Shown: piece by piece, positions 1,503 through 54,891 of the stretch | Position numbering within the stretch: the first letter of the stretch is position 1 | Layout of the letters: each line of letters starts with the position of its first letter | Virus record (IMG/VR): IMGVR_UViG_3300023297_000003 | Reading direction: 5' to 3' (one strand) | Length of the DNA: 64,000 nt | Source of the DNA: a virus | Lineage: Duplodnaviria > Heunggongvirae > Uroviricota > Caudoviricetes | Program-made: the position numbers and the translations under genes | The notes under the pieces: model-generated | What the model saw: only the letters and a program-made list of their open reading frames with translations | The model's database searches: none | What the model was told of the DNA's origin: nothing

Positions 1503-1675
1503 AGACGAACCCGTAGCTTGCGACCTTACCCGTGTCCTCGAAAAGTCCGCTGGCCAGGAGAGCCCTGATCAGCGGGTGTTTGATGTCGTGATGCAGGATG
1601 AAAGCATTCGGGTCCAGGGTTTGCACCAAGTCTCTTACACAGATGGAGAGGGTGGCGTAAACCGTTCCTCAAAAC

Positions 1676-3100
1676 CTACTTGAATCTACTAGGCATCAAG
1701 TTTGAAGCTGTGCCGCTGCCAGACGAATCTGATCCAACGGTAGTAAGCCTCCGGCCCAACGGTAAGGGCTCGAATGACGGTTGCTCTTTTCGCCCGAATC
1801 CCAAGGAACTGGTCCGTCGAAGACGGAATCGCTCTCTCAGCACTCGTTTTACGCCTCGTGGGTGATCACCAGTTCCAATGTGTTCGTTCCCAGAACGTCT
1901 GAGCACACCAGCACTTCCTACCCAATCAGCGTGAGCCTTCCTGCCACAACAGCGGCAACGGAACCTTATTGAACTTCGGTTTCCTCGATGAACATAACCA
2001 CAAGAAGGACACTCCTGCGACGTGTAAGCAGGGTTCACTTTCTTTGTTGGAGCCTTCCTTTCCAAGTTGATCTGTAACGCCCTGTAAGCGAACCGCTTTT
2101 GACCCCGGCAACCTCGAAGATCAAGATCTTCGACTACGAACACCGTCTCGGGATGACGGGCGATGAGGGTATTCACCACACGACCCGTTTCTGTCTTGAT
2201 CAACCCACTCAACTTGCTCTCAAGGTGATCTAACCTTGGACTGTTGTCTTTCAAATCCTGTCGTTGGCGATTTGCTCGGAGATTTCTGACACGAGCATAG
2301 AGCTTATCGAATTTGGGCTTGACGTGCTCACCATAGGTCACTCCATCTGAGGTAGCTGCAAGGACGTTCAGACCAACGTCAACGCCCAACTTAGGCCAAC
2401 CCTCCTGTGCTTCAGGAACGGCCCACTCGGCCTTGCTGACAGCTTCAAAGCGCCAGAAGCCTCGCTTGGTCTTGCGGACCGAAATGCCTTTACTGACCTG
2501 ATCAGCCTGTTGGATGTAAGGATTCCCAACGAGGGGTAACCAGACGGACTTACGAGCTTCTAACGAGGATACTCTCAGCCAGAAATCCCCGAGAGGGGCC
2601 TTCGATGTATCTTCCAATCGAGCCGTCATCTCCGACAACCTCATGGGTAGGTTGTTTCTTACGATAGGCTTATTACCTCCGTAGGTGTCCAACAGGGTGT
2701 GGTAGGCGTCGAGATGGTCTTGAGTAATAACTTTCCACGGTTTACTGATGGACTTCAATCCGATGACATAGAGTGCTTTGGCATCCTGATCGGTAAGGGT
2801 ACCGTCATGCTTAAGGTTGGTAATGGTTGGCTTCAACTTACGAGCATAAGTAGCTTTCGCCCAAGCGCTCACGATTTGTATTGCATGGTCTCGTGCGTTC
2901 TTTTCGATCTGAGACGTAAGGTTGGTGGCCCGTGGGAAGAACGTTTGTTTGGCGGCTTTCGGGAGATTATAGACCCGCTGGTCAAGCATCGTTTGTACGC
3001 AGATACGGACGTACTTGACGTAGGCATTGTGTAGGACTTCCAACTTGTCGATTTTGGACTGATTGGTATCTTTATGAAGTCGGAAGATGCGACATTTCAT
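1676..3100 (-). CDS. tnpB: TnpB (IS605 OrfB-family RuvC-like nuclease with CxxC..CxxC zinc finger)
   Basis: 474 aa; RuvC motifs, AYTSQECPSCG..CRCCGRKAHAD zinc finger; 3' end overlaps right end (omegaRNA region). Confidence 0.9.
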   Translation of the reverse strand: MKCRIFRLHKDTNQSKIDKLEVLHNAYVKYVRICVQTMLDQRVYNLPKAAKQTFFPRATNLTSQIEKNARDHAIQIVSAWAKATYARKLKPTITNLKHDGTLTDQDAKALYVIGLKSISKPWKVITQDHLDAYHTLLDTYGGNKPIVRNNLPMRLSEMTARLEDTSKAPLGDFWLRVSSLEARKSVWLPLVGNPYIQQADQVSKGISVRKTKRGFWRFEAVSKAEWAVPEAQEGWPKLGVDVGLNVLAATSDGVTYGEHVKPKFDKLYARVRNLRANRQRQDLKDNSPRLDHLESKLSGLIKTETGRVVNTLIARHPETVFVVEDLDLRGCRGQKRFAYRALQINLERKAPTKKVNPAYTSQECPSCGYVHRGNRSSIRFRCRCCGRKAHADWVGSAGVLRRSGNEHIGTGDHPRGVKRVLRERFRLRRTSSLGFGRKEQPSFEPLPLGRRLTTVGSDSSGSGTASNLMPSRFK

Positions 3101-3852
3101 TTGACTGTCTCTGCCGCTTCTGCTGCTTTCTTGGCCTTACGTCGTTCTGCCGAACGTTTGCCATAAATCTTAGCGGAGAACGACGACATGAGCGTCAAAA
3201 TGTCTTCGACCAACTCTTCCTGATAGCCTTTGCCAAGGACTTCTTGTGTCCACTCGATGGTGACACCATGACTGTTGAAGTAAGCATTGACCAGATTGAA
3301 CCCGAAGCGAGTCAGGCGGTCTTTGTGTTCAACAACCACCCTATCTATTTCATGGGCATTGACCAGTTTGAACAACTTTCGGAGTTTTGGGCGTGTGTCT
3401 GACATGCCCGACCCAACGTCTTGAAGCACTTCGACCAACTTGTACTGCTTCGTGATGCTGTGTATCGTGACCCGTCCAGCCTGACGTTCAAGATCGCCTG
3501 ACTTTTTCTGATCGTGGCTGGACACACGGCAGTAGATAACAACTCGTTCCGTTTGCTGTTTATCGATTGGGAGATTGCCCAGCAACCTGTCAATGTCTGA
3601 TTGCTTGAAACGGCGATGCCCACCCACGGTGCGAACGTGAGGGATCTTGTCTTCATCAGCCCAGTCCCGAAGCGTATTCCGGTGAACACCAAGAGCTTCG
3701 GCTGCTTTGGTGAGAGCTAGGAGACGATCAGTCAGCATCCTCATCTCCCGCATCAGGTATGGGAAACACCAGTCCTTGATCTTCAAAGACCTTGCGCCAC
3801 CTGTTGTACTGTTGTTGGAACTCTTCGACGGTAGGCACCTCATCGGGATCAA
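3097..3852 (-). CDS. tnpA: IS607-type TnpA serine recombinase (MerR-like HTH + resolvase domain); true start may be internal (~3738)
   Basis: LTKAAEALGVHRNTLRDW HTH; VIYCRVSSHDQKKSGDLERQ serine-recombinase motif; 4-bp overlap with tnpB. Confidence 0.8.
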   Translation of the reverse strand: MIPMRCLPSKSSNNSTTGGARSLKIKDWCFPYLMREMRMLTDRLLALTKAAEALGVHRNTLRDWADEDKIPHVRTVGGHRRFKQSDIDRLLGNLPIDKQQTERVVIYCRVSSHDQKKSGDLERQAGRVTIHSITKQYKLVEVLQDVGSGMSDTRPKLRKLFKLVNAHEIDRVVVEHKDRLTRFGFNLVNAYFNSHGVTIEWTQEVLGKGYQEELVEDILTLMSSFSAKIYGKRSAERRKAKKAAEAAETVK

Positions 3853-14136: not shown

Positions 14137-14772
14137 ATGACACTTTTAGAACAGCACCGTGACCTGGCCCTCATGATCCTCGTAGGCAGGGCACTTCCCG
14201 AAGGACTGCCCTGGACCCCGGATGAGGACCAGGGCTTCGTGTCCCGTGAGCGCCTCCTGTGGGTCCAGTTGACCGAAGAGGAGCAGGCACAGGAACAGGA
14301 GGCTCTGGGGGCGCTGTGGGGCAAGCGTGGCGCTCCCCGTACCGTTCCCGTGAATCCCCAGTGGGGTGCTTGGACAGAGGGCCTCACCGAGGTCTCGATC
14401 CCTGACTCGGCGTTCGGTTTACCGGACAACGCCTTCCGCCCCTTGGTGAAGGGCATCCAGATCCTGGCCGAGGAGCACCCCGAGTTGATCGTCCTGTTAG
14501 AGTGGTTGTGGAAGCGGGGGTTCCATCCCGTTGCTTTCGATGGGGACACCCTCACGCTGCTCATCCCGCCCCACAGAATCGTCCAGGAGTCCGAGCGGCT
14601 GGTTGGGATCCTCATCCGGGACTGGCCCAAGATCCCCGTGGTGTCCCGCCCGGCGGAGGCGTCCCTGACCGTTAAGGGTTCCTATGACCCCGTGAGCGGT
14701 CAGGCGATCATCTATCTGTCAGGGGTCACGCCGTTTCAATCCACGCACCTTTTGCCAAAAGATGCGACTTAG
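14137..14772 (+). CDS. hypothetical protein
   Basis: 211-aa ORF with protein-like composition; opposite ORF 14100..14630 is R/S-rich artefact; 3' end contains SRU2. Confidence 0.5.
   Translation: MTLLEQHRDLALMILVGRALPEGLPWTPDEDQGFVSRERLLWVQLTEEEQAQEQEALGALWGKRGAPRTVPVNPQWGAWTEGLTEVSIPDSAFGLPDNAFRPLVKGIQILAEEHPELIVLLEWLWKRGFHPVAFDGDTLTLLIPPHRIVQESERLVGILIRDWPKIPVVSRPAEASLTVKGSYDPVSGQAIIYLSGVTPFQSTHLLPKDAT
14733..14768 (+). repeat. solitary CRISPR-repeat-like unit (SRU2), 30/36 identical to array repeat
   Basis: gtttcaatccacgcaccttttgccaaaagatgcgac; both handles conserved, central hairpin replaced. Confidence 0.6.
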
Positions 14773-33138: not shown

Positions 33139-33154
33139 TGAGGAGAATGAAACG

Positions 33155-33742: not shown

Positions 33743-33748
33743 TGAGGG

Positions 33749-34027
33749 GTGGACCCACTGGACACCTCTTCCCGAAGACCCCACGGAGGCCACATGAAAT
33801 ATATTTGTAGTCATGCTACAGATCCTCGGTGTCCTTACCCCAACACTTGTCCCCACTTCGGACATCATGAGTGGAATAGCGACGAGTTTGATGATGAGGA
33901 GTGTGGCGAAGCTGAATGTGAGATTCGGGAAGGGGACTCCATCGGGGTAATCCTCTGTGTCAATTGCGTGCCTGTGCAGGAAAACGGCAGCGCAGAGACG
34001 CTTCCCGTTCCGTCCAGGGCACTGTAG
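33749..34027 (+). CDS. Cys/His-rich small protein
   Basis: 92 aa, CxxxxxxC, CPHFGHHEW, CGEAEC, CVNC. Confidence 0.4.
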   Translation: MDPLDTSSRRPHGGHMKYICSHATDPRCPYPNTCPHFGHHEWNSDEFDDEECGEAECEIREGDSIGVILCVNCVPVQENGSAETLPVPSRAL

Positions 34028-34271
34028 TTGAGGAGAAGAATATGGCCGATTGTATTTCTAGTGGACTTAGAGCTAGGATGAGTAAAGACCCCTCACTGGG
34101 GGGGCTATAGTTCACGCCGCTTCCTTGCGGAATACGAAAAGGCGCATATTGGCCCTCAAGAAACTTGGACTTAAACTTGTGGCCAATATGCGAGTGCCAC
34201 GCTAGGAAGTCCTCAGCGTCGAGTTTGAAGAAGAGTACTGAACGAACTGAAAACCGAACAGGAGCGATATC

Positions 34272-34538
34272 ATGACGAAGTCTACACCCGTAATCACCAA
34301 GGGTCATTCCTACACCAAGGGTCCGTACCGCTGGTCGGAGGATTATCAGGAGGTGACCATCTCGGTCCCCGGTTACGGTGGCACCAAGCGTGTCCTCAAC
34401 GTGACCCGGAAGGAAGCCACCCCCGAGAAGCTGGAAGTGCTCCGCATCGCTGAGGGTACCCGGATCGTGGAGATCATCGAGGCCCATTCCCTGACGTTCG
34501 GTAAGGAAGAGGTCGCTAAAAAGAAAGTGGCTGCGTAG
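34272..34538 (+). CDS. hypothetical protein
   Basis: 88-aa ORF. Confidence 0.45.
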   Translation: MTKSTPVITKGHSYTKGPYRWSEDYQEVTISVPGYGGTKRVLNVTRKEATPEKLEVLRIAEGTRIVEIIEAHSLTFGKEEVAKKKVAA

Positions 34539-34656
34539 CCGTTCTCCTAACCGTCAAAAACGCACAACCACAAGGCCCCGACTTTTAGGAGCGTTGATCC
34601 AGCCCCCTGAGCGGCCACTCCTGAGTCAGGTCATCAAGGTGGAACATCAACATCGT

Positions 34657-35042
34657 GTTTCAATCCACATACCGTTCCTTAAAACCTGCTAAAATGTAAC
34701 AGGCATCAAGTTTGAAGCTGTGCCGAATCTTGGTGTCCCAAGTACCTCGGTAGTAAACTTCCGGCCCAACGGTAAGGGCTCGAATGACGGTTGCTCCTTC
34801 CGTCCGAATCCCAAGGAACTGGTCCGTTTAACACGGAATCGCTCTCTTAGCACTCGTTTTATGCCTCTCGGATGATCGTTAGTTTTGATGCGTTCGTCCC
34901 CAGAACATCTGGGCACACCAGAACCTCCTACCCAATCAGCATGAGCTTTCCTGCCGCAACAGCTCCCTGTTTCAAGCAGGAACAGTTAGACTTTAGCAGG
35001 TATGAAGGGCACTGTCAAGTACCCTTTGTCAAAGGATACGAC
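34657..35042 (+). repeat. solitary CRISPR-repeat-like unit (SRU3) split by insertion of mini element B
   Basis: left flank gtttcaatccacata (34657-34671), right flank tttgtcaaaggatacgac (35025-35042) together resemble one 36-bp repeat. Confidence 0.5.
34672..35024 (-). mobile_element. 353-bp miniature TnpB-derived element (mini B)
   Basis: same composition and deletion junction as mini A; right end ccgttcc.. at 34672, left-end hairpin gggcactgtcaagtaccc 35007-35024. Confidence 0.7.
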
Positions 35043-35071
35043 TCGACTCTTTATATTGCGTCTGCCCTGCT

Positions 35072-35971
35072 TCAAACTACCTTTTGTCCTTTCAGGGGCA
35101 CAATGAGGTAGCCCAAGAGCGGCCATTTCTCGGCAATCTCATCAATACGGTACCGCAACATCGTCAGACGGACGTGGAAGTCCCGCATCTCAACCAGGGG
35201 AGCAGTGTGGTCTGCATGGTTCCTGGCGCTCTTGCAACCGTTCCACAGGCCCATCCACTTCCATTCGTCAGGGAGACCCCGGCAGTTGGCCTTACCAACG
35301 CCCCTGTGGGCCGCTGCAAGCTGTTCCTCCCGGAGGGTGTGTACGGCGTGGATCATTGCGTCACGGGCACAGAAACGCTCCAGGGCGCACTCAGAGGACA
35401 CATCCCGACCCGTGTCCCGTTCAAAGTCTCGCAACCAGGACCACCCGCAGAACCGCTTGGAGTCCTCAGGGCCACCGACCCGCTCGACCACGTCCCGAAG
35501 CTGATACAGACCGACGTCGAGGTGGTTCCTCCAAACATGCCGCTTTTTCCGGCAGTTCGTGTAGCAGGAGCCGAGCTTGACGCACTTCTTCTCCCAGCGT
35601 TCTTTGCTCTCGTTGTAGAAGGGCTCACCCCACACCTTACAGTAGTTGATGACGTCACGGTCCCCACCGCTTTCCGTGGAAACAATGTGGGCGATGAGCA
35701 TCGGCTCCTCTGCCGTGTGCAAGGCCACATGTAGGATGTCCTCTATTACGGTGTCATCGAACCCGAAGTGCTCCTTGATCATCCAGTAGTTGATCTCCTC
35801 CTCCACGTCAACGGTGAGGATCAACTCAGCCTCTTCCGCTGTGATGGTCTCCGCCACTGCAGTGAGGGTCTGGTCGTAAGAGTACGGGGTATATGCAGGG
35901 TGGGTGGTCTGCTCCGGGGTCGTTGTCCCCAGGACGGCTAAGACCGCCAGTTTCATCCAAAGCGTCATCAT
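35072..35971 (-). CDS. secreted protein, possible lytic transglycosylase-like
   Basis: signal peptide MMTLWMKLAVLAVLG; HIVSTESGGDRDVI resembles SLT ES-motif (weak). Confidence 0.35.
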   Translation of the reverse strand: MMTLWMKLAVLAVLGTTTPEQTTHPAYTPYSYDQTLTAVAETITAEEAELILTVDVEEEINYWMIKEHFGFDDTVIEDILHVALHTAEEPMLIAHIVSTESGGDRDVINYCKVWGEPFYNESKERWEKKCVKLGSCYTNCRKKRHVWRNHLDVGLYQLRDVVERVGGPEDSKRFCGWSWLRDFERDTGRDVSSECALERFCARDAMIHAVHTLREEQLAAAHRGVGKANCRGLPDEWKWMGLWNGCKSARNHADHTAPLVEMRDFHVRLTMLRYRIDEIAEKWPLLGYLIVPLKGQKVV

Positions 35972-36054
35972 TTGAACCTCCTTTCAGGCCCCTTGTCTAC
36001 TCCGTTCTAGGGGAAGGGGCGTGCCTGGATCGGGAGTATAACTGGATCACCGAT

Positions 36055-37245
36055 GTTTCAATCCACGCCCCCTCATGGGAACGACGAGGTTGTCTACACT
36101 TACTACCCTAATGTTTCAATCCACACACCCGTGAGGGAGTGACCCCTTCTGCCTCGCTGCGGTTTCGTTTCAATCCACGCATCCCCTTGTTAGATGGTAC
36201 GACGGCAGGGTTGCGCCTTCTCAGGGATCAGTCCGAATCAGCGTTTCAATCCACGCACCCCTTGTTAGAGGATGCGACGTGAGCCGACCAGCCAGTTCCC
36301 CGTAAATCGGATTTAGTTTCAATCCACGCATCCTTTTTTCAGAGGATGCGACAGTAAGGCAGGCATGGCTCGTGGGGCGCTGGCTCACTGCGTTTCAATC
36401 CACGCACCCTTTGTTAGAGGATGCGACCGGTCACCCACGGACCAGGGGTGGAGTTCGCTTACGTTTCAATCCACGCACCCTTTGTTAGAGGATGCGACTT
36501 CGCCAGCGCCTTCAGGGCGGGAGTCGCAAGGGGGATCTCGTTTCAATCCACGCACCCTTTGTTAGAGGATGCGACGCTCCAAGGGCGGACAGGAAAGGGA
36601 AGTGTCATCGGATTGTTTCAATCCACGCATCCTTTGTTAGAGGATGCGACTTGTGACCGTCATTCCTGGATTTCGCCCAACTTCGAGTTTCAATCCACGC
36701 ATCCTTTGTTAGAGGATGCGACGAGGAAGACCGTCTTGTCCCGTCGAGCAGTCCTCTGAGCGTTTCAATCCACGCATCCTTTGTTAGAGGATGCGACACG
36801 GCGTCCCCAGGCCGTGGGAGCCGTTCTGTGGGCCTGTTTCAATCCACGCATCCTTTGTTAGAGGATGCGACTTCAGCTTCCCCTCTGGATCCTTGACGGC
36901 GAGGCACTTGTTTCAATCCACGCATCCTTTGTTAGAGGATGCGACACCCACCAAGTCGCACTCGACTGGGTCGCTGTTTGAAAGTTTCAATCCACGCATC
37001 CTTTGTTAGAGGATGCGACACCACCATAGGTCGGCTTCTTCCCCGCCAGGTCCACAGTGTTTCAATCCACGCATCCTTTGTTAGAGGATGCGACTGGTGA
37101 TCTCATCCGGGGTGTCATGCGGGCAGTAACGTTTCAATCCACGCATCCTTTGTTAGAGGATGCGACTTTCCGTTGGCTTGAGCCCGCTGGACGCCTGCAC
37201 GTACTCTCTGTTTCAATCCACGCATCCTTTGTTAGAGGATGCGAC
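36055..37245 (-). CRISPR. type I-C CRISPR array, 17 repeats of 36 bp (GTCGCATCCTCTAACAAAGGATGCGTGGATTGAAAC in transcript sense), 16 spacers of 35-43 nt
   Basis: direct repeat count by eye; leader-distal repeats at 36055-36280 degenerate; perfect repeats next to cas7. Confidence 0.95.
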
Positions 37246-37441: not shown

Positions 37442-38467
37442 TTACTGGATGGCCCGGAACTCGACACCTTCCGGGAGCTTGGACTCGTCCACGGTGACAG
37501 TGTAGTCGTCGAAGGACATCGGGGCCTCTACCCCGTCCTTTTTGACCACAGTCACGATGCGTCCGTTGTCCAGCAGCTTATGGGCCGGGGCGCACCCGAG
37601 CTTGGCCTGCTGTGCCCGCTCTTCGGGGTCGTCCGCCGTCCCGACGTGCTTGAAGATGTAGATGCCCCGACAGGTCATCAAACCCTTGCTGGAGGTCCGA
37701 TCATGGTCGTACATGTTTTCCAGACCCTCGATCATCAGGGCCAGATCCTCCGCCGAGAAGCCCGTCTGTTCCGCCACGAAAGCGCTCACCGTGATGTTGG
37801 CAGCGAAGAGACCGTAGGGGATGATCGCCTTGGTTCCCATCGTGCGGAGAGCCGCCGCCTCGGCCCCGTCCTCATACTCCTGCCACTGGGCGGAGGAGAA
37901 ACCCTGATCCTTGGGGGTCTTGACCTTCTTGGGATCAGGGGAGCCCTTGGTGTCGGTCATGCGGGTGATGGTGATCTCCTGGATGGATACCGGATCGAGG
38001 GACCGGGCACTCACCACCTGGACGGGTCCACGAATCTGGCCCGCCTTGGCACCTGTGTTGAGAACACCGCCGAAGGTGCGGACATCCCAATAGTCCTGGC
38101 ACATCCGGTCACCCGCCGCCCGCTCCTCCTGCTTGGTAGCCTTCGCCGGGACGGTCCCGTGGGAGTCCTCGTGGGCCTTGGCGATGAGCCTGTTGGTACA
38201 GGTGTTCATCATCAGCAAAATCTGGTACGGGGTCTTGCCTGCCTTGCGGAGACTCACGTAGTTGCGGAGACGCCGCTTGATGGCGACGTCGGTGACGAAC
38301 CCGTGTCCCGTGTCCGGGATGGTCCGGGGCAGGTTGCCGAAGTCGGGGTCACCGTTGGGATTCCCCATCAGACAATCGAACAGGAACAAGATCTCGAACC
38401 TGTATCCGATTGCCGCCGTCCCACTCTTCAGCCACATCAAAAGATCCTTCATGATACTTCTCCTCAC
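37442..38467 (-). CDS. cas7: Cas7 (Csd2, type I-C)
   Basis: FLFDCLMGNPNGDPDFGNLPR Csd2 signature; start may be M6 (38452). Confidence 0.8.
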   Translation of the reverse strand: MRRSIMKDLLMWLKSGTAAIGYRFEILFLFDCLMGNPNGDPDFGNLPRTIPDTGHGFVTDVAIKRRLRNYVSLRKAGKTPYQILLMMNTCTNRLIAKAHEDSHGTVPAKATKQEERAAGDRMCQDYWDVRTFGGVLNTGAKAGQIRGPVQVVSARSLDPVSIQEITITRMTDTKGSPDPKKVKTPKDQGFSSAQWQEYEDGAEAAALRTMGTKAIIPYGLFAANITVSAFVAEQTGFSAEDLALMIEGLENMYDHDRTSSKGLMTCRGIYIFKHVGTADDPEERAQQAKLGCAPAHKLLDNGRIVTVVKKDGVEAPMSFDDYTVTVDESKLPEGVEFRAIQ

Positions 38468-38512
38468 TTTATGCCTAATCCAACTCTAAGGCCCACCTTA
38501 GGCCATTAGAGA

Positions 38513-40345
38513 CTATGCCTTAATCGGGGGTGTCCCTGCGGGCTTGTCCTGCTTCTTCCAGGACGAGCGCTGGTGGAGCAACCCCATGGCAAACAAAGCT
38601 TGATCCTCGATGCCGAGGCGGGTCGGAAGGTCTGTGGGCAGGCGGTCGACGATCTCCTGCCGTTTGTGATCCGCCCATCCCTTTCCCTGTCGGACGAGCT
38701 TGTTGACGTGCTTCTCGGAACGGAGCAGTAACCGGGCCAGCGCACGGGCCGGGTTCTGCATCGTTGCGGACGAGAACTGAGCAGCCAGGGCCATCGGGGG
38801 GTTCCTCCCACCGATGGCGAGGCTCTGGAGTTCGGACAGGACGGACAACAACCGCCCACACTGGTACGCCACACTCGGGTGGTCCTTGTTCAATCCTGCT
38901 TCACACATGGTGTTCCCTCTCCTGTTGATGAAGGTTTTGAGGATTCCCGGCAATGCCGGAGCGATCCCCATGTTGGTTGACGGTTTGATGGACAGGTGCA
39001 ACTGTGACCGGAACTGCACCAGGGCCTTTTTGACAATGCTCATTGGGACCGACTGGCCCCGCAGGGCTACCTGAACGAGCATCTCACGCTCCAGTTCGGA
39101 AGCTTTGCCCCTTGGGCCGTTGACAGCGGAAAGGATCTGCCAGAGTGCAGAAAGGCGGGCGATCCCCGTGTCATTGCGGTTGTTGCTGATGGTCATATCC
39201 TGATACCATCGATAGATGTTCTTGAACAGGACGGACAGGGGTCCAGTCTCCCAGTGCCGGACAGCCAACCGGGGACCGTTGCTAGAAACGATGCCCAAGG
39301 TGCAGTCCATGTCTAGGACACCTCCCGGTCCGGTGCCCGTGTCCAGGTATTCCTTCACCTTCCGGGTGGCACCCCGGAGTTCCCCATCCGTCAATCCCGA
39401 GTTCAAGAGGTCGGACATAACGTCGGACAGGATCTGGGTCCACTCGCCCCCTTCAAGAACCGGCCCTTGGCCCGCCAGCAGTCCAGCCTTCCCCGTAAGG
39501 GTTTCTCCCCTGGAACAAGCCCACACAAGGATTCGAAGATCCCCAAAGGCCGTCCCGGCGTTTTGGGCGGCATGAACCAGAGCCTGGGTCATTGTGCTCG
39601 CCGTCTGGTCTGACATCGGAGCAACGAGGCCAGACTCCTGGCCATAGTGGTGACTGGAGGTCTGCTTGGCGGCAACCAGCTTCGTCTTCGTTGTGCCGAA
39701 GGCAATGCCGTCAGGATGGATGCGGCAGGGGTTCGTGATCTCGTCCCCGGTGACGACGCAGCGGAACGTCTTATCGCTGGTCTTCTTCTTTTTGTCCGCT
39801 CCTGAAAGGTAGGTCGCCCACCACTCCCGCCATTCCTTCTTGTCCTGGAACGGGATGCCGAGTTTCTTCCCCTCGGTCTGGAAGATCACAGCCCGCTTGA
39901 GGTCTGCCTCCATCTTCGTCAGAGCCTGAACCACAAGGGCGACCTGCTCGTCGTCCTCCAGGAAGGTCTGGATGGGGGTCAGGTACTTCCGAGTGCAGGG
40001 AACCTCCTTGATGACCGTTCTGATCTGCTCCAGGAAGAGGCCCCTCTTCACCTCGTTCTTGGTGTTGTCGTGCGGTTCGGCCACGAGGAGAGGGAACACC
40101 TGGGGGACATACCCGATGAAGAAGTGAGTCTTGGGGGGCGTGGCCCTGAGCAAATTGGAGGGCACCCGAGGTGTCAGGATCGGGGAGGCCGTCTTGGTGT
40201 CCCTGAGGTGACAGTCCTGGTACTTCCCGTCCGGGGTCAGGCACACTACGGTTTCCACGACGGTCAGGTACTCGTACCCCACCGGAGCCTGCTGGGGCAT
40301 ATAGTGTGCGGCATAGTTGAGGAGGCTCTGTCCGATACCACTCAT
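38513..40345 (-). CDS. cas8c: Cas8c (Csd1) large subunit
   Basis: 610 aa between cas5c and cas7, size and position typical of Csd1; no independent motif. Confidence 0.65.
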   Translation of the reverse strand: MSGIGQSLLNYAAHYMPQQAPVGYEYLTVVETVVCLTPDGKYQDCHLRDTKTASPILTPRVPSNLLRATPPKTHFFIGYVPQVFPLLVAEPHDNTKNEVKRGLFLEQIRTVIKEVPCTRKYLTPIQTFLEDDEQVALVVQALTKMEADLKRAVIFQTEGKKLGIPFQDKKEWREWWATYLSGADKKKKTSDKTFRCVVTGDEITNPCRIHPDGIAFGTTKTKLVAAKQTSSHHYGQESGLVAPMSDQTASTMTQALVHAAQNAGTAFGDLRILVWACSRGETLTGKAGLLAGQGPVLEGGEWTQILSDVMSDLLNSGLTDGELRGATRKVKEYLDTGTGPGGVLDMDCTLGIVSSNGPRLAVRHWETGPLSVLFKNIYRWYQDMTISNNRNDTGIARLSALWQILSAVNGPRGKASELEREMLVQVALRGQSVPMSIVKKALVQFRSQLHLSIKPSTNMGIAPALPGILKTFINRRGNTMCEAGLNKDHPSVAYQCGRLLSVLSELQSLAIGGRNPPMALAAQFSSATMQNPARALARLLLRSEKHVNKLVRQGKGWADHKRQEIVDRLPTDLPTRLGIEDQALFAMGLLHQRSSWKKQDKPAGTPPIKA

Positions 40346-41013
40346 GCTGCACCCCCTGGCCGGAACACGGCGGCACTATCAGTGAACTCCGGGTAGGCCA
40401 CGGCCCCATCCTTGATCTGTGCGTGGAACACGCTGACCGAAGGATCTCCATCGGGCACCAGCAGATTGAAGGTGTCGTAGACCATCACCCCCACGTCCAC
40501 CTGAAGGTCTGCGAGTCCCTGTGATGGATCATGCTCATCCACCGGGACAAGCTGGAAGTTGGCCATAAACTCCTTGCAACCTAAGAAGGGCTGGTGGAAA
40601 CATTGGCCCCTCTCCGCCCGACGACGGAATTGGGCGTCGATGGCGTTGGTGTTCCCATCAGGATTCCGGCAGACCGCCCGTGCGAAGATGCGGTACCGGG
40701 GGTCCAGGAGAGTCCTGGTGTGCTTTTGGGTCCGGTGCTTCTGGGTTGTAAGATCAACCTGAAGAGTGCGGCGGGTGACCTTGTCTTTCATCTCGTTCCG
40801 CATGATCCCCATGTACCGGATCGGGTTCACAACCTCTACCCCGACGATCTGCCAGTAGAAGTTGGCGGACCTTTTCCAGTAGATAGCGTCGAAGATCCCC
40901 CGACAGGCTGAGTGGGTTGGGATGGGGTAGGTGGTCCGCTCCGTCACCTCTGGGCGGGAGAAGCAGGCATTGTCCCCCCACACTTCCAACCCGTGCAGCA
41001 TACCTTTTTTCAT
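40342..41013 (-). CDS. cas5: Cas5c (Cas5d) pre-crRNA endonuclease subunit
   Basis: 223 aa, N-terminal GLEVWGDNACFSRPE resembles Cas5 glycine-rich region; position upstream of cas8c. Confidence 0.7.
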   Translation of the reverse strand: MKKGMLHGLEVWGDNACFSRPEVTERTTYPIPTHSACRGIFDAIYWKRSANFYWQIVGVEVVNPIRYMGIMRNEMKDKVTRRTLQVDLTTQKHRTQKHTRTLLDPRYRIFARAVCRNPDGNTNAIDAQFRRRAERGQCFHQPFLGCKEFMANFQLVPVDEHDPSQGLADLQVDVGVMVYDTFNLLVPDGDPSVSVFHAQIKDGAVAYPEFTDSAAVFRPGGAA

Positions 41014-41107
41014 CTGTCCCTCCGTCTGTTTATCCAGCCGAGTTTCTTCGGCGGCACTTCTTACTACTCAATGAAGTCGCAAAAGGAACCCCTGTCCGCA
41101 GACTTTT

Positions 41108-43486
41108 TCATTGCACCAGCCCAAGTTCCGGGTGGTAGGCTCTTGGGTCAGTGCAGATGTACCAGCCCGTTTCGGTGATGGAGCCGTCCTTCCTTTTCAG
41201 CGTGACGGGGTCAAGGCTGAGCCAGAGGGGGTGATCCTTCTTCAGTGACAGAACAGAGACCGATAGCAGGGCCGCTCGGTTCATCCACATCCGGAAGCTT
41301 TTCCGGGTGGGCCGCTCCTTGTTGAGTTTCCTGTACTGCTCCCCACACCCTCCTTCCAGGTAGGGAACGACGACCTGGACCCCTTTGTCGGGAATGACCC
41401 GGTAGCGTCGACTGACCTTCTCGAAGGAACCCTCCTGGTACGCCTCGATGATCTTTTTGGTGGCCGGGTGATCTAGCCCTGCTTCCCGATAGAGGGCCTC
41501 ATAGTACTGGGTCAAGATTTCCGGGTTCGTCGGGTCGAGACGTTGTCCGTAGCGCCGGAGGAACCGCTCCGTGATCCGGGCAGCAGCCTGGAACCACTCG
41601 TCATGCGGGAACATGTCCTTGTATTCAACGTCCGGGCGGAAAACGAAGATGTCCCCTAGTACCCGCAAGCCCTCCCGGTTTACCCGCCCAGCGGTTTGTG
41701 CCGTCCCATCCAACGGTCCCATGGCCGGGAAGCCCCTGTTGAAGTCGAAGTCCGTCCCTGAGTTCACACAAGGAGTAGCTGCCAGAACGAAGTAGTCCCC
41801 AACGGTCTTCAACCGACGAACCACCTCTTTGAGTAGCCCCTTCCGGTGGGCTGGACACAGGTTGGAAGTCAAATAGATAGCTCGATCCGCCCCCCACCGT
41901 GTCTGTATTTCCCTCCAGGCCGCTTCCGCATGGTCCTTCCTGTTGAGAAGCACGAGGTTTGACATCCTTTCCGAACACACCCGGTCAGCCAACTGCGCCC
42001 AGGTCCACCTCTCGTCGTCGTTGTGCGGCCAGTGAAACTTGTTGCGGACCATCGCCTTGGCCGAGGCTACGGGGGCGGAGGCAATCTCCTCGTAGGGCTG
42101 GAGCGGTTCCCCCACGAGTGTTTCTACCTGAGGCAGGATGCTCTGGAAGGCAGGCTGGGTGGCCGTGGCAGACACCACCGTGACCTGATACTGACGGCTG
42201 AGTCGGTCGAGCATTGCTATTGTGGGGAGCATAAGGTGGCTGGGCAAAGACTGGCCCTCATCAAAAATGATCACGCAGTCCTGGATGTTGTGGAGTTTCC
42301 GGCATCTCCCTGGCCGATTGGAAAACAAGGACTCCAATAGTTGAACGTTCGTGGTGAGGATGATTGGTGCATCCCAGTTTTCAGTGAGCCCTCGTCGGTC
42401 AATCTCATTTGATCTACCATCCTGTTGGAGATCCTCCTCTTCGACCCACTGCGTGGCGTCCGTGTGATGCTCCAACACAAAGTGGGGACCGAAGGCCCGG
42501 TCCTTGAAAAGCTCCTTCAGGGTTTTCGCCGTCTGTTGAATGATGCTTTTGTAGGGTACAGCGATGATCACCCGTTTAAGTTGGTGGGCCTGACAGTGCG
42601 CCAGGGCGAACGAGACCAGCGCTAGAGTTTTGCCTACACCGGTGGGGGCTGTACAGGTCAAAATGCGTCCTGGAGGCCCCTGGGCGGCTCTGAGGCAGTC
42701 CTGTCGTAGACGGTCCCGTTCCTGTTGCACCACAGGGGAAGCACCATCGCTGCGTTTGCTCTTGGCACTGAGGCCGTCGATGTATTTGTTCAAAACGTCA
42801 AGGGCGAGACCGGCGTCCAACGGGGGGTTGGGACAGGTGCGCCCTGGTTTGAAGTGCTCGGCGGTGTCCAGGAAGTCGGCGTCAACGAGCGCAGAAAAGG
42901 CCATTCGGACATCCAAGCCCTTGGCAATGGACAACTGCCAGCCTTTCACCAGTTCAGAAAAAGAAAAGAAGGTCTCATCATCATTTATATTGATTTCAGG
43001 AAGCTCGATGCCATCCTCACGTAGGGGAACCAACAAGTCTTTCGCTGGCCCCGGATAGACATGGAAGACACCGGGGTTAGGATGAGTCCCGCTACCCATC
43101 GGCTGTGCAGAGGGGCGTAGGACACACCCCAAATAGACGCGTGAGAAATCCGGCAGACCCCTATGGTGTCCGGCGATCAACAGGGAAGCGAGGAGGGATC
43201 CTCGGTCGTAAGCAACCCAGGCTCCAGGTGAGGAATGATCCAGCACCCCTCGGGCTACCCCGTTCAGTACATCAGGGAACAGGGGACTGTATTTGCCGAT
43301 GTCATGCCCCCGGCTGGCGAAAGAAACCTCTCTGACGTGCTGGGGTGGGAAGTGGGTGCCCAGGAAACGGAGAGTCAGCGCTTCAACCCCCAACAGATGT
43401 TCCACCATCGTTTGGACCTTGCCGGTTACTTTGCTGGCGCTGTGGGCTATTCGGTTCCAGTTGGGCATCTGTCCCCCCCTATACAC
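41108..43486 (-). CDS. cas3: Cas3 HD nuclease-helicase
   Basis: N-terminal HD (HDIGKYSP, HHRGLPDF), Walker A TCTAPTGVGKT, DExx IFDEGQ. Confidence 0.85.
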   Translation of the reverse strand: MYRGGQMPNWNRIAHSASKVTGKVQTMVEHLLGVEALTLRFLGTHFPPQHVREVSFASRGHDIGKYSPLFPDVLNGVARGVLDHSSPGAWVAYDRGSLLASLLIAGHHRGLPDFSRVYLGCVLRPSAQPMGSGTHPNPGVFHVYPGPAKDLLVPLREDGIELPEININDDETFFSFSELVKGWQLSIAKGLDVRMAFSALVDADFLDTAEHFKPGRTCPNPPLDAGLALDVLNKYIDGLSAKSKRSDGASPVVQQERDRLRQDCLRAAQGPPGRILTCTAPTGVGKTLALVSFALAHCQAHQLKRVIIAVPYKSIIQQTAKTLKELFKDRAFGPHFVLEHHTDATQWVEEEDLQQDGRSNEIDRRGLTENWDAPIILTTNVQLLESLFSNRPGRCRKLHNIQDCVIIFDEGQSLPSHLMLPTIAMLDRLSRQYQVTVVSATATQPAFQSILPQVETLVGEPLQPYEEIASAPVASAKAMVRNKFHWPHNDDERWTWAQLADRVCSERMSNLVLLNRKDHAEAAWREIQTRWGADRAIYLTSNLCPAHRKGLLKEVVRRLKTVGDYFVLAATPCVNSGTDFDFNRGFPAMGPLDGTAQTAGRVNREGLRVLGDIFVFRPDVEYKDMFPHDEWFQAAARITERFLRRYGQRLDPTNPEILTQYYEALYREAGLDHPATKKIIEAYQEGSFEKVSRRYRVIPDKGVQVVVPYLEGGCGEQYRKLNKERPTRKSFRMWMNRAALLSVSVLSLKKDHPLWLSLDPVTLKRKDGSITETGWYICTDPRAYHPELGLVQ

Positions 43487-44191: not shown

Positions 44192-45700
44192 CTACGGACG
44201 AGATGGCTCAGGCTGCAATGATCCAGGTGGTGAACAGGCGGTTCGCTGATGGACACTGGTACCGTTCCTTAAAACCTGCTGGAATGTAACAGGCATCAAG
44301 TTTGAAGCTGTGCCGCTGCCAAATGACTCTGATCCAACGGTAGTAAGCCTCTGGCCCAACGGTAAGGGCTCGAATGACGGTTGCTCCTTCCGCCCGAATC
44401 CCAAGGAACTGGTCCGTTTAACACGGAATCGCTCTCTTAGCACTCGTTTTACACCTCTTGGATGATCGCCAGCTTTGATGTGTTCGTCTTCAGAACGTCT
44501 GAGCACACCAGAACTTCCCACCCAATCAGCGTGAGCCTTCCTACCGCACGAGCGGCAATGGAACCTTATTGAACTTCGGTTGCCTCGATGAATGTAACCG
44601 CAGGAGGGGCACTCCTGCGACGTATAAGCCGGGTTCACCTTCTCTGTTGGGGCTTTTCTCTCCAAGTTGGTCTGTAACGCCCTGTAAGCAAACCGCTTTT
44701 GGCCTCGGCAACCTCGAAGGTCGAGATCCTCGACCACGAACACTGTCTCAGGATGGCGGACGATAAGGGTGTTTACTACACGACCCGTTTCTGTCTTGAT
44801 CAACCCACTCAGCTTGCTTTCAAGGTGATCCAACTTTGGGCTGTTGTCCTTCAGGTCCTGTCGTTGGCGGTTTGCTCGGAGATTTCTGACACGAGCGTAG
44901 AGCTTGTCGAACTTAGGTTTGACGTGTTCACCATAGGTCACGCCATCTGAAGTAGCTGCAAGCACGTTCAAGCCCACATCCACACCCAACTTAGGCCAAT
45001 CTTCCTGTGCTTCAGGAATGGTCCACTCAGCCTTGCTAACTGCCTCAAAGCGCCAGAACCCCTTCTTGGTTTTACGGGCTGATATCCCCTTGTTAACCTG
45101 ATCAGCCTGCTGGATGTAAGGATTCCCAACAAGAGGCAACCAGACGGATTTCCGAGCTTCCAACGAGGACACCCTCAGCCAAAAACCCCCCAAAGGAGCT
45201 TTAGTTGTGTCTTCCAATCGAGCCGTCATTTCTGACAACCTCATGGGTAGGTTGTCCCTTACGATAGGCTTGTTGCCTCCGTAGGTGTCCAACAGGGTGT
45301 GATAAGCATCGAGATGGTCTTGGGTGATGAACTCCCATGGCTTGCTGATGGACTTCAACCCGATGACACAGAGTGCTTTGGCGTCCTGATCGGTGAGGGT
45401 ACCGTCATGCTTGAGATTGGTGATAGTCGGCTTTAATTTACGAGCGTAAGTAGCTTTGGCCCAAGCACTTACGATTTGAATTGCATGGTCTCGTGCGATC
45501 TTTTCGATTTGAGACGTAAGATCAGTAGCCCGTGGGAAGAACGTTTGTTTGGCGGCTTTCGGGAGGTTGAGGGTTTGCTGGTTGAGCATCGTCTGTACGC
45601 AGATACGGACGTACTTGACATATGCTTTGTGCAGGGCTTCCAACTTATCGATCTTAGATCGGTTGGTGTCCTTGTGAAGTCGGAAGATGCGACACTTCAT
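44192..45700 (-). CDS. tnpB: TnpB (second copy; 3' tail reads through right end)
   Basis: 502 aa, ~90% identical to 1676..3100 copy, intact RuvC and zinc finger. Confidence 0.85.
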   Translation of the reverse strand: MKCRIFRLHKDTNRSKIDKLEALHKAYVKYVRICVQTMLNQQTLNLPKAAKQTFFPRATDLTSQIEKIARDHAIQIVSAWAKATYARKLKPTITNLKHDGTLTDQDAKALCVIGLKSISKPWEFITQDHLDAYHTLLDTYGGNKPIVRDNLPMRLSEMTARLEDTTKAPLGGFWLRVSSLEARKSVWLPLVGNPYIQQADQVNKGISARKTKKGFWRFEAVSKAEWTIPEAQEDWPKLGVDVGLNVLAATSDGVTYGEHVKPKFDKLYARVRNLRANRQRQDLKDNSPKLDHLESKLSGLIKTETGRVVNTLIVRHPETVFVVEDLDLRGCRGQKRFAYRALQTNLERKAPTEKVNPAYTSQECPSCGYIHRGNRSSIRFHCRSCGRKAHADWVGSSGVLRRSEDEHIKAGDHPRGVKRVLRERFRVKRTSSLGFGRKEQPSFEPLPLGQRLTTVGSESFGSGTASNLMPVTFQQVLRNGTSVHQRTACSPPGSLQPEPSRP

Positions 45701-45775
45701 TTACTGACCTCTGCTTCTTGTTTCAAGCAGGAATAGTTAGATTTTAGCAACTAAATTGGGTACTGTCAAGGACCC
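44262..45775 (-). mobile_element. IS1341-type (tnpB-only) IS200/IS605-family element
   Basis: right end ccgttcc.. at 44262; left-end hairpin gggtactgtcaaggaccc 45758-45775; no tnpA. Confidence 0.75.
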
Positions 45776-54855: not shown

Positions 54856-54891
54856 ATTTCAATCCACGCATCCATTTCTAAAGGACACGAC
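54856..54891 (+). repeat. solitary CRISPR-repeat-like unit (SRU1), 29/36 identical to array repeat
   Basis: atttcaatccacgcatccatttctaaaggacacgac; 3' handle (transcript sense GGATGCGTGGATTGAAAT) conserved, 5' stem arm lost. Confidence 0.55.

What the first reader, a model, noticed from the sequence alone, without database searches (positions are those of the whole stretch)
34657..35042. A third solitary repeat unit (SRU3) has been split by insertion of a TnpB-derived mini element
The 15 nt just left of mini element B (gtttcaatccacata) match the 5' end of the CRISPR repeat. The 18 nt just right of it (tttgtcaaaggatacgac) match the repeat's loop and 3' end. Joined, they give a near-complete repeat with the insertion falling in the stem arm. 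The unit is again in array orientation and about 30 nt downstream of the stop of a minus-strand gene (35072..35971). Either the IS200/IS605-type element prefers a site inside the repeat, or the insertion was tolerated or selected to inactivate the unit. The mini element's right end abuts ..GTGGATTGAAAC, so its predicted omegaRNA guide would be repeat-derived sequence.
Basis: partly seen in the sequence, partly recalled or inferred. Interest (0 to 1): 0.7.

Follow-up and report, generated by a model that had tools for sequence, protein, structure and literature searches.

The report
Mini transposon splits solitary CRISPR repeat
A 354-bp non-autonomous IS607-family (TnpB/omegaRNA) element sits on a GGGT inside a lone type I-C CRISPR repeat of a huge-phage-like genome. 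The insertion is real and disables the repeat, but it looks like an ordinary insertion rather than repeat-specific targeting.

Summary
The bases on either side of a 354-bp element (34671-35024) match the window's type I-C CRISPR repeat far better than anything else in the window.

The family and the joint were misassigned. The only transposase in this element family here is a serine recombinase (IS607 family), not an IS200/IS605 Y1 enzyme. In every copy with both ends visible, the left junction reads R|GGGTAC and the right end reads AACGGT|N, so the empty site keeps 4 nt (GGGT). This was checked on another copy: removing the mini at 53217-53570 and leaving ACCC restores a gapless small ORF matching a relative's 78-aa protein.

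Applied to SRU3, the rule gives a full 36-nt unit, GTCGTATCCTTTGACAAAGGGTATGTGGATTGAAAC. It is 31/36 identical to the older array repeats and folds in the same hairpin-plus-handle register.

The insertion separates hairpin from handle. It also makes the predicted omegaRNA guide (ATGTGGATTGAAACACGATG) repeat-derived, which follows simply from where the element landed.

Only 1 of 7 mapped sites is a repeat, so repeat preference is unsupported. No empty SRU3 site was found.

A related genome lacks SRU3, the mini element and the CRISPR-Cas locus. It shows that SRU3 abuts a displaced copy of the neighbouring gene's original 3' end, which I cannot explain.

The parts
35025..35042 (-). SRU3 5' portion in crRNA sense (GTCGTATCCTTTGACAAA): 5' stem arm, loop and start of the 3' arm
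   Evidence: 15/18 identical to the array repeat, best elsewhere 13/18; sequence
35021..35024 (-). GGGT at the LE junction. This is the 4 nt that would remain in the empty site (target / TAM-like motif) and the continuation of the SRU3 3' stem arm
   Evidence: R|GGGTAC at 7 of 7 LE junctions; 4-nt joint restores a gapless ORF at another copy
34671..35024 (-). Non-autonomous IS607-family mini element ('mini element B'): LE about 66 nt plus the last 288 nt of tnpB/RE
   Evidence: Mini positions 1-63 and 67-354 align to the two ends of the tnpB copies; 89-91% identical to three other minis at different sites
34990..35018 (-). Promoter-like site in the LE (TTGACA-17 nt-TAAAGT, TG-extended) pointing into the element
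   Evidence: the hexamers are present in the LE sequences of the other copies shown. A consensus match only
34677..34700 (.). RE-side arm of a 24-nt subterminal inverted repeat (partner at 34985-35008); candidate transposase-binding sites kept in the mini element
   Evidence: 83% complementary
34671..34958 (-). Predicted omegaRNA scaffold (3' end of tnpB plus RE, ending ...GGAACGGU)
   Evidence: Eleven copies align; 86 predicted pairs, 25 with compensatory changes; no Rfam family
34651..34670 (-). Predicted omegaRNA guide template, ATGTGGATTGAAACACGATG: 14 nt of SRU3 handle plus 6 nt of flank
   Evidence: Lies immediately 3' of the RE in tnpB orientation. Guide position is inferred from IS607 TnpB biology
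34657..34670 (-). SRU3 3' portion in crRNA sense (ATGTGGATTGAAAC): end of the stem plus the 11-nt handle
   Evidence: 12/14 to the repeat, best elsewhere 11/14
35072..35971 (-). 299-aa gene of unknown function whose stop lies 29 nt upstream of SRU3. Its last 93 nt (35072-35164, 'copy A') are only 59% identical to the relative L121
34552..34656 (-). 'Copy B': displaced ancestral-type 3' end of the same gene. It starts at the base after SRU3, is 102/105 identical to L121, and carries a 2-nt deletion
1661..3738 (-). Autonomous IS607-family copy (RE at 1661, tnpB 1676-3100, serine tnpA 3097-3738). It is the only source of TnpA in the window. Its LE was not located
44261..45775 (-). tnpB-only copy of the same element; a second TnpB source
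36055..37245 (-). Cognate CRISPR array (17 repeats). The older repeats carry AAAGGGTGCG, the variant SRU3 resembles most
37442..43486 (-). Type I-C cas3-cas5c-cas8c-cas7; no cas1, cas2 or cas4 was seen between cas7 and the array
14733..14768 (-). SRU1, an intact solitary unit
54856..54891 (-). SRU2, an intact solitary unit

Best explanation
SRU3 was a complete 36-nt type I-C repeat-like unit on the minus strand: GTCGTATCCTTTGACAAAGGGTATGTGGATTGAAAC. It has a 10-bp hairpin followed by the 11-nt handle, and it lay 29 nt downstream of gene 35072-35971.

A 354-bp non-autonomous IS607-family element integrated at the GGGT in the 3' arm of that hairpin. The element consists of the LE with its promoter-like site plus the omegaRNA-encoding 3' end of tnpB/RE. 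The serine transposase TnpA, supplied in trans (for example from the copy at 1661-3738), would recombine a circular element with a G-rich target through a shared core. That leaves GGGT at the LE junction and CGGT at the RE end, with no target duplication.

Consequences:
1. The SRU3 hairpin is separated by 354 nt from its handle and downstream sequence, so it can no longer give a Cas5c-processed, handle-bearing RNA.
2. The mini element's omegaRNA acquires the guide AUGUGGAUUGAAACACGAUG. With TnpB from the two intact tnpB genes, this guide would cut only an uninterrupted SRU3 allele (TAM-like GGGT, whereas the RE's own CGGT is 'self'). That is the usual retention/homing role.

Site choice is explained by the short GGGT motif plus tolerance of an insertion there, not by recognition of the repeat.

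Shown: element anatomy, family, junction rule, the 4-nt joint, reconstruction of the repeat, structured RE RNA.
Inferred: trans-mobilisation, omegaRNA expression and guide length, the TAM, and loss of SRU3 function.
For: - Both flanks are repeat-derived, beyond the window background.
- Element family: the MerR-HTH plus resolvase ORF overlaps the tnpB start. It scores 196 bits against NF033518 IS607 transposase (cutoff 110). Its closest solved structures are ISC1926 and IS1535 TnpA.
- TnpB: Pfam/NCBIfam TnpB hits. GVDVG, VVEDL and HADWVG, which I read from memory of TnpB as the RuvC motifs, are visible in the translations.
- Junction rule: 7 two-ended copies and 4 further distinct RE-only sites all give R|GGGTAC and AACGGT|N, with nothing else conserved in the flanks.
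- Published parallel: CboIStron TnpA_S target and TnpB TAM are TGGG, its RE ends in TCGG, and position -3 (G versus C) discriminates self from non-self (bioRxiv 10.1101/2023.11.20.567912).
- Independent test of the joint: excising 53217-53570 and leaving ACCC gives an ORF with 73.6% identity over 72 aa and no gaps to the L035 78-aa protein. Leaving 0 or 3 nt frameshifts; leaving 1 or 7 nt needs a gap.
- The reconstructed SRU3 is 31/36 to the older repeats and folds in the same register as the array repeat, SRU1 and SRU2 (-9.0 kcal/mol). It carries a compensatory C-G to U-A change in the stem. The 0-nt joint does not fold (-3.7 kcal/mol, z -0.4).
- The mini keeps both subterminal inverted-repeat arms, a promoter-like site and a covarying RNA scaffold.
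- Minis occupy four different sites (three in the window plus L028), so they have been mobile.
Against: - No uninterrupted SRU3 allele was recovered. Exact-pattern scans found none in IMG/VR or JGI metagenome contigs. All 10 contigs shown for the identical neighbour gene, and the one contig shown for the 88-aa gene that spans the site, carry the insertion.
- The 4-nt joint is validated on one other copy only. At 44261-45775 the same joint opens a 221-aa frame, but no uninterrupted homologue exists to confirm it.
- The LE of the tnpA-bearing copy was not identified. That this TnpA mobilises these particular ends is therefore inferred.
- Copies differ by 9-15%, so the insertion may be old and the elements may no longer be active.
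- Nothing here shows transcription, TnpB activity, the TAM, or that SRU3 ever had a function to lose.
Confidence: 0.85

Rival explanations
1. The element preferentially targets type I-C repeats. This could be because its target/TAM GGGT sits in the 3' stem arm of I-C repeats, or because an omegaRNA guide matching GTGGATTGAAAC drives TnpB-stimulated homing into repeats.
For: GGGT followed by GCGTGGATTGAAAC is part of the canonical I-C repeat in many viral contigs and of 5 older or degenerate repeats of this array. Under uniform use of the 786 GGGT sites, the chance that any of 5 window copies hits one of the 6 repeat-like sites is about 4%.
Against: - Only 1 of 7 mapped sites is repeat-like. 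The mini at 53217 lies within a small ORF conserved in L035, and the 44261 copy splits a possible 221-aa ORF.
- None of the array's own GGGT-bearing repeats is invaded.
- The 4% figure is post hoc, because the site was picked for being in a repeat.
- The miniB guide differs from array repeats at TAM-proximal positions 1-2 and beyond position 14.
Confidence: 0.08
2. The insertion was selected because it inactivates SRU3. One example would be a repeat-mimic RNA (Racr-like) or crRNA-like unit that became harmful once this lineage carried its own I-C system.
For: - The insertion is present in every contig examined from several samples, including one from a 528-kb contig.
- SRU3 occurs only in the CRISPR-bearing lineage.
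- The insertion separates hairpin from handle.
Against: - Fixation is equally expected for a neutral insertion in a clonal population.
- SRU1 and SRU2 remain intact in the same genome.
- No function of SRU3 is known.
Confidence: 0.12
3. One reading: an IS200/IS605-type (Y1 transposase) element inserted 3' of a target motif in the repeat, with the flanks joining directly.
For: TnpB and an RE-encoded structured RNA are shared by IS605 and IS607 elements.
Against: - The associated transposase is a serine recombinase.
- There is no conserved 4-5-nt motif outside the LE. The flank bases are ACAAA, AGAAG, GTGGA, GGTCG and so on.
- A 0-nt joint frameshifts the testable copy and gives a 32-nt non-folding sequence.
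Confidence: 0.02
4. The flanks resemble the repeat by chance, or the similarity comes from the element's own ends.
For: The LE begins with GGGTAC, which itself completes a hairpin with GTATCC in the flank.
Against: Both flanks exceed every other position in the window. They are in the correct order and orientation at the exact borders. Other copies of the element have unrelated flanks.
Confidence: 0.01

Closest known systems
IS607-family transposons with TnpB/omegaRNA (e.g. the Clostridium botulinum IStron studied by Zedaveinyte et al., bioRxiv 10.1101/2023.11.20.567912; IS607/IS1535 TnpA, eLife 2018, PMC6188088)
   Same: - Serine TnpA with an N-terminal HTH, followed by tnpB.
- No target duplication.
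- A G-rich core shared by both junctions: here GGGT versus CGGT, there TGGG versus TCGG.
- The omegaRNA is at the RE with its guide in the flank.
- The same motif is expected to serve as transposase target and as TAM.
   Different: - The motif carries an extra conserved T (GGGT/CGGT).
- No group I intron was detected (no Rfam hit).
- Most copies here are tnpA-less or are 354-bp minis.
- The host genome is a huge-phage-like element.
- Activity is untested.
Non-autonomous, guide-RNA-only derivatives of TnpB elements (PATE/MITE-like minis of IS605-superfamily elements; named from memory, not checked in a paper here)
   Same: The ends plus the omegaRNA scaffold are kept, the nuclease gene is deleted, there are multiple dispersed copies, and mobilisation and TnpB supply are presumed to occur in trans.
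   Different: The element has IS607-type ends, and one copy sits inside a CRISPR repeat-like unit.
Viral solitary repeat units / RNA anti-CRISPRs (Racrs; Camara-Wilpert et al., Nature 2023, PMC10651486), including RacrIC1, which lies 11 nt after acrIC5
   Same: - A lone type I-C repeat mimic with hairpin and handle in a virus-like genome.
- It lies a few nt downstream of a gene, so co-transcription is plausible. SRU1 lies 8 nt after an Apyc1-like MBL gene and SRU3 lies 29 nt after its gene.
   Different: - The matching array and cas genes are in the same genome.
- The host repeat is unknown.
- There is no functional test.
- SRU3 is interrupted.
crRNA-like regulatory RNAs (CreA/CreR, crlRNAs; Shmakov et al., bioRxiv 10.1101/2023.03.03.530964)
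   Same: A stand-alone repeat near a cas locus that could give an RNA with a 5' handle plus adjacent sequence.
   Different: No partially matching target with a TTC PAM was found in the window for any of the three pseudo-spacers, and there is no second repeat-like unit.

Membership tests
IS607 family (the element) | Serine-recombinase TnpA with an N-terminal MerR-type HTH | tested here: met
   ORF 3097-3738 hits Pfam Resolvase plus HTH_17/MerR, NF033518 at 196 bits against a cutoff of 110, and PDB 6dgc at 2.9e-32 and 6dgb. It is present only in the autonomous copy, not in the mini.
IS607 family (the element) | tnpB downstream of tnpA, with RuvC and zinc-finger motifs | tested here: met
   tnpB overlaps the tnpA stop by 4 nt. 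It hits Cas12f1-like_TNB and OrfB_IS605 and guided_TnpB (91.5 bits, below the curated cutoff of 100). The motifs are readable.
IS607 family (the element) | No target-site duplication; both junctions share a GG-containing core, so excision leaves one copy | tested here: met
   R|GGGTAC at 7 of 7 LE junctions, and AACGGT|N at those 7 copies plus 4 further distinct RE-only sites. The 4-nt joint restores a gapless ORF.
IS607 family (the element) | TAM equals the transposase target, and the RE variant (C at the discriminating position) avoids self-cleavage | not testable with these tools
   The sequence pattern GGGT versus CGGT parallels the published TGGG versus TCGG. TAM function needs an assay.
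IS607 family (the element) | Structured omegaRNA encoded at the RE | tested here: met
   86 pairs, 25 of them with compensatory changes, across 11 copies. Expression was not tested and there is no Rfam model.
   The only transposase attached to this element is a serine recombinase. None of the ORFs scanned hit a Y1 family.
   The bases outside the LE are not conserved. A 0-nt joint frameshifts the test ORF.
Type I-C CRISPR repeat-like solitary unit (SRU) | Sequence similarity to a cognate repeat over its full length | tested here: met
   31/36 after reconstruction, against a background maximum of 21/36.
Type I-C CRISPR repeat-like solitary unit (SRU) | Hairpin followed by the 11-nt ...UGGAUUGAAAC handle | tested here: met
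   It folds in the same register as the array repeat, SRU1 and SRU2. This holds for the reconstructed unit only; in the present DNA the two parts are 354 nt apart.
Type I-C CRISPR repeat-like solitary unit (SRU) | Solitary: no neighbouring repeat at spacer distance | tested here: met
   The nearest repeat is the array end at 36055, 1 kb away with a gene in between.
Racr (RNA anti-CRISPR) | Mimics the repeat of the host's CRISPR-Cas system and inhibits it | not testable with these tools
   The host is unknown. The only matching system seen is in the same genome.
crRNA-like regulator (CreA/crlRNA) | The adjacent pseudo-spacer partially matches a PAM-flanked target, typically a promoter | tested here: not met
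   No match above shuffled controls and none with TTC within the 64-kb window. The rest of the genome, which is at least 528 kb, was not searchable.

The most novel reading that the evidence does not exclude
SRU3 was not a passive relic but the guide unit of a CRISPR-based homing or exclusion device. Its handle is followed, from the very first base, by 48 nt identical to the 3' end of the neighbouring gene as it exists in the CRISPR-less sister lineage (L121). The carrier's own functional gene end (copy A) is only 59% identical. A handle-plus-flank RNA loaded into the phage's Cascade-Cas3 would therefore match sister genomes but not self. Recombinational repair on the carrier would then copy the CRISPR island up to exactly this junction. 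On this reading the IS607 mini element has replaced a Cascade guide with a TnpB guide at the same spot. The anatomy fits. However, the PAM position in L121 is CTG, not the usual I-C TTC, and a single repeat may not yield a loadable crRNA.
Probability: 0.05. Interest if true: 0.85.

Novelty: new member of a known kind. Interest (0 to 1): 0.35.

Why it matters
For annotation, the finding corrects the element family. That changes how every copy's boundaries, empty sites, TAM and guide should be read: a 4-nt GGGT joint, not a flush joint.

It documents non-autonomous IS607 omegaRNA elements spreading inside a huge-phage-like genome of at least 528 kb. At least one of them interrupts a small ORF conserved in a relative.

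For CRISPR biology, the value lies less in the insertion than in what it exposed. This genome carries three repeat mimics next to gene ends. One of them (SRU1) is perfectly conserved in contigs from the same sample as the CRISPR-less L121 contig, and sits behind an Apyc1-like gene. Another (SRU3) sits at a precise recombination junction. These are testable candidates for Racr-like or guide-like functions in a phage that also has its own adaptation-less type I-C system.

Tried and rejected
- Empty-site searches: the pattern TCCTTTGACAAA-N(0-8)-ATGTGGATTGAAAC gave nothing in IMG/VR or in JGI metagenome contigs.
- The element's RE 24-mer is absent from IMG/VR.
- The RE 20-mer in GTDB genomes gave only a distant relative in a Proteobacteria MAG and a probable chance hit. 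The source genome is therefore not in that collection.
- Phage database (INPHARED), blastn of 33000-37400: no match. This gives no protospacers and no relatives.
- Rfam: no family for the omegaRNA or the repeat.
- Homologues of the 299-aa neighbour in more distant relatives (L030, L032-L035) have no I-C unit downstream.
- I suspected that the insertion site of the 53217 mini was also repeat-like. This was rejected because the site is coding sequence of a conserved small ORF.
- Second check of the 4-nt joint, through the restored 221-aa ORF at 44261-45775: no uninterrupted homologue exists in the protein database or in the fetched loci.
- SRU pseudo-spacers against the window, with and without a TTC PAM: nothing above shuffled controls.
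- Array spacers against all fetched loci: no hits, so the PAM is unknown.
- Scan of IMG/VR for GGRTRYGTGGATTGAAAC: 83 stretches (about 80 listed) with generic 32-33-nt I-C repeats or single units, none close to this 36-nt repeat.
- The LE of the tnpA-bearing copy could not be recognised.
- Contigs L002 and L004 leave the mini element at its RE into other flanks. I treated these as assembly joins through a repeated element, not as alleles.

Full report
**Setting.** The window (56% G+C) carries a type I-C cas3-cas5c-cas8c-cas7 operon on the minus strand (43486..37442) and a 17-repeat array (37245..36055). No adaptation genes lie between cas7 and the array.
- In crRNA sense the repeat is GTCGCATCCTCTAACAAAGGATGCGTGGATTGAAAC.
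- The older repeats read ...AAAGGGTGCG..., and the last ones are degenerate.
- Other genes include NAD ligase, a PARP-like protein, RtcB, ThyX, an HNH endonuclease, one tRNA and many ORFs with no family hit.
- A promoter-like motif is repeated before many genes.
- Identical genes lie on a 528-kb metagenome contig.
- I read this as a huge-phage-like genome. That is an inference from gene content, not a demonstrated fact.

**The observation.**
- GTTTCAATCCACAT (34657-34670) and TTTGTCAAAGGATACGAC (35025-35042) flank a 354-bp repeat-family member.
- Each half matches the CRISPR repeat better than any other position in the window: 12/14 against a best of 11/14, and 15/18 against a best of 13/18.
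- An exact GTTTCAATCCAC occurs only in the array, SRU1 and here.
- The halves are in the right order and orientation and sit exactly at the element borders.
- Other copies of the element have unrelated flanks. The similarity therefore belongs to the site, not to the element.

**What the element is.**
- Five copies share the end ACCGTTCC... and four share ...CTGTCAAG(T/G)ACCC.
- The copy at 1661 carries tnpB (1676-3100). Overlapping the tnpB start is an ORF with a MerR-type HTH and a resolvase catalytic domain.
- That ORF scores 196 bits on NCBIfam's IS607 transposase model, against a cutoff of 110.
- Its closest solved structures are the ISC1926 and IS1535 IS607-family transposases.
- A second copy (44261-45775) has tnpB only.
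- The three 354-bp copies, and one in a metagenome contig (L028), consist of about 66 nt of LE joined to the last 288 nt of tnpB/RE.
- The retained RE part folds into a conserved structure with 25 covarying pairs across 11 copies.
- The LE carries TTGACA-17-TAAAGT.
- A 24-nt subterminal inverted repeat is kept at both ends.
- This is a non-autonomous IS607-family element that still encodes an omegaRNA. It is not an IS200/IS605 element.

**The junction rule.**
- In tnpB orientation, the 7 copies with both ends visible read R|GGGTAC... at the LE. These 7 plus 4 further distinct RE-only sites read ...GGAACGGT|N at the RE. Nothing else is conserved outside.
- This is what a serine recombinase crossing over in a shared core produces.
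- It parallels the experimentally characterised C. botulinum IS607 element: target and TAM TGGG, RE ending TCGG, with G versus C at one position separating non-self from self.
- The predicted empty site is left flank + GGGT + right flank.

**Test of the joint on another copy.**
- The mini at 53217-53570 interrupts a small ORF.
- Removing it and leaving ACCC (+ strand) gives MSQTISIDRIQVLHFADGVDRVEILTDKPYPFFEDDG....
- This aligns without gaps, at 73.6% identity over 72 residues, to a 78-aa protein of the relative L035.
- Leaving 0 or 3 nt causes a frameshift. Leaving 1 or 7 nt requires a gap.
- The same joint opens a 221-aa frame across the 44261-45775 copy, but no intact homologue exists to confirm it.

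**Reconstruction of SRU3.**
- With the 4-nt joint the unit is GTCGTATCCTTTGACAAAGGGTATGTGGATTGAAAC.
- It is 36 nt long, 31/36 to the older repeat variant, against a background maximum of 21/36.
- It folds as a 10-bp hairpin at positions 3-25 followed by the 11-nt handle. That is the same register as the array repeat, SRU1 and SRU2, and it carries a compensatory C-G to U-A change.
- The flush joint implied by an IS605 model gives 32 nt with no significant fold.
- The crossover lies at positions 19-22, in the 3' arm.

**Consequences (inferred).**
- At the LE junction, the element's own GGGTAC completes a hairpin with the flank. The LE palindrome GGGTACT/AGTGCCC competes with it, and the handle is replaced.
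- At the RE junction, the handle is preceded by the omegaRNA scaffold rather than the repeat hairpin.
- SRU3 can therefore no longer yield a hairpin-plus-handle RNA.
- The predicted guide, ATGTGGATTGAAACACGATG, is repeat-derived simply because of where the element landed.
- Against the array's GGGT-bearing repeats the guide mismatches at TAM-proximal positions 1-2 and beyond position 14. Self-cleavage of the array is therefore unlikely. This rests on general knowledge of TnpB seed requirements, not on a test.

**Is the repeat a preferred target?**
- Only 1 of 7 mapped sites is repeat-like.
- At least one other site lies in coding sequence, and another splits a possible ORF.
- GGGT occurs 786 times in the window, 6 of them in repeat-like units. 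The chance that one of five copies hits such a unit is about 4% before allowing for post hoc selection.
- None of the array's own GGGT repeats is occupied.
- Canonical I-C repeats elsewhere do contain GGGTGCGTGGATTGAAAC. Such hits are therefore to be expected occasionally.
- I conclude there is no evidence for repeat-specific targeting.

**Empty site.**
- None was found by exact-pattern scans.
- All 10 contigs shown for the identical neighbour gene carry the insertion, as does the 528-kb-contig locus that spans the site.

**An unexpected relative.** L121, which is 89-98% identical in the flanks, lacks three things: the CRISPR-Cas locus (36055-43895 is replaced by about 1.27 kb), the mini element and SRU3. 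There the homologous 303-aa gene ends 15 nt from the convergent 88-aa gene. Aligning the three sequences gives this order in the window:
- The gene runs up to ...GTCCGTCTG.
- 'Copy A' follows: ACGATGTTGCGG...TGA, only 59% identical to L121. It encodes a different C-terminus.
- Then come 29 nt, then SRU3.
- Starting at the very next base is 'copy B': ACGATGTTGATG..., 102/105 identical to L121's gene end. The first 48 nt are identical, and copy B carries a 2-nt deletion.

So a segment of about 150 nt, consisting of an alternative gene end, a 29-nt spacer and SRU3, lies between two ACGATGTTG 9-mers. The repeat's last base is a precise junction with displaced ancestral sequence. I cannot explain this. 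Three options remain open:
- Module exchange with an illegitimate junction.
- A precise deletion in L121.
- A guide-like role of SRU3 plus copy B against sister alleles.

The PAM position in L121 is CTG, which argues against the third option for a standard I-C system. The array spacers hit nothing that would reveal the real PAM.

**The other units.**
- SRU1 lies 8 nt after the stop of an Apyc1-like MBL-fold gene. It also forms the last codons of a convergent called ORF.
- SRU1 is identical, within a 124-nt block free of mismatches against a 93% background, in contigs from the same sample as L121.
- SRU2 abuts the stop codon of a DUF3228 gene. The sister lineage keeps its hairpin part but has a different handle and 561 extra nt.
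- No pseudo-spacer has a secondary target in the window.
- The gene-adjacent layout resembles published acr-racr operons. No function can be assigned here.

**Verdict.**
- The element is IS607-type, the joint is 4 nt, the unit is complete, and the insertion looks like an ordinary use of a short target motif.
- It is a new member of known kinds. The unexplained junction at the end of SRU3 is the part most worth following up.

Noticed in passing
window 34552-34656 and 35072-35164; L121 6808-6912: The last ~100 nt of gene 35072-35971 exist twice. A diverged functional copy (59% to L121) lies before SRU3. A near-identical-to-L121 copy (102/105, 2-nt deletion) starts at the base after SRU3. Both begin with ACGATGTTG.
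   Followed up: partly
L121 (ENA ERZ27316756 k141_169078) versus window 36051-43896: A sister genome lacks the whole cas3-cas7 operon and array. The homology breakpoints lie 3-4 nt from the end of the terminal degenerate repeat (36055) and at about 43896, next to a promoter-like motif and tRNA-Ile.
   Followed up: partly
window 53217-53570: This mini element interrupts a small ORF conserved in relative L035 (78 aa). Excision leaving ACCC restores the ORF.
   Followed up: yes
window 44261-45775: The tnpB-only copy splits a possible 221-aa ORF (the C-terminal part is called as 45756-46292). Its tnpB has lost the normal stop and reads 28 codons into the flank (stop at 44192).
   Followed up: partly
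window, 17 or more sites, e.g. 29733-29769, 30387-30423, 46464-46499, 57605-57640: A repeated intergenic motif, GGGATCATCT-N12-GAGTAG-N5-GTGAGGGGCAAATGACCCC, oriented with the downstream gene. It looks like a genome-specific promoter plus ribosome-binding site and start codon.
   Followed up: no
window 14733-14768; L122 4775-4812; L123: SRU1 sits 8 nt after the stop of an Apyc1-like (anti-Pycsar-like) MBL gene, and it encodes the last 13 codons of the convergent called ORF 14137-14772. It is 100% conserved within a 124-nt identical block in contigs from the same sample as the CRISPR-less L121 contig (Ga0307992 also carries it).
   Followed up: partly
window 54856-54891; L124 2157-2190: SRU2 starts at the base after the DUF3228 stop codon. 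The sister lineage keeps the hairpin part, has GAGGATGGGTGAGG in place of the handle, and carries 561 extra nt including a 160-aa gene.
   Followed up: partly
window 12406-13836: A second, unrelated TnpB-like ORF (476 aa) lies on the minus strand about 0.9 kb from SRU1. Its ends were not examined.
   Followed up: no
window 36055-36150: The two terminal array repeats are shorter, with different G+C-rich stems (GTCGTTCCCATGAGGGGGCGTGGATTGAAAC). They resemble the generic 32-33-nt I-C repeat rather than this array's 36-nt repeat, and the adjacent spacers are only 18 and 22 nt.
   Followed up: no
L020 11050-11110 (Ga0075125_10001163): Another contig carrying a copy of the same IS607 element also has a lone unit, GTCGCATCTTCTGAAAAGAATATGCGTGGATTGAAAC. 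Apart from the element, the contig does not match the window.
   Followed up: no
L032-L034 (e.g. LP_F_10_SI03_150DRAFT_c1000349): In more distant relatives, the homologue of the 299-aa gene is followed by a different CRISPR-Cas module (Cas3-HD ... CasE-type protein). The neighbourhood of this gene therefore seems to be a hotspot for CRISPR-Cas islands.
   Followed up: no
L002 3647 onward; L004 1404 onward: Two metagenome contigs leave the SRU3 mini element at its RE into other flanks: a methyltransferase gene, and the flank of the 44261 copy. These are probably assembly joins through the repeat, and possibly real recombinants.
   Followed up: partly
window 3739-4030: The LE of the tnpA-bearing copy does not resemble the LE shared by the tnpB-only and mini copies. 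A 68-codon ORF precedes tnpA. The boundary is unresolved.
   Followed up: partly
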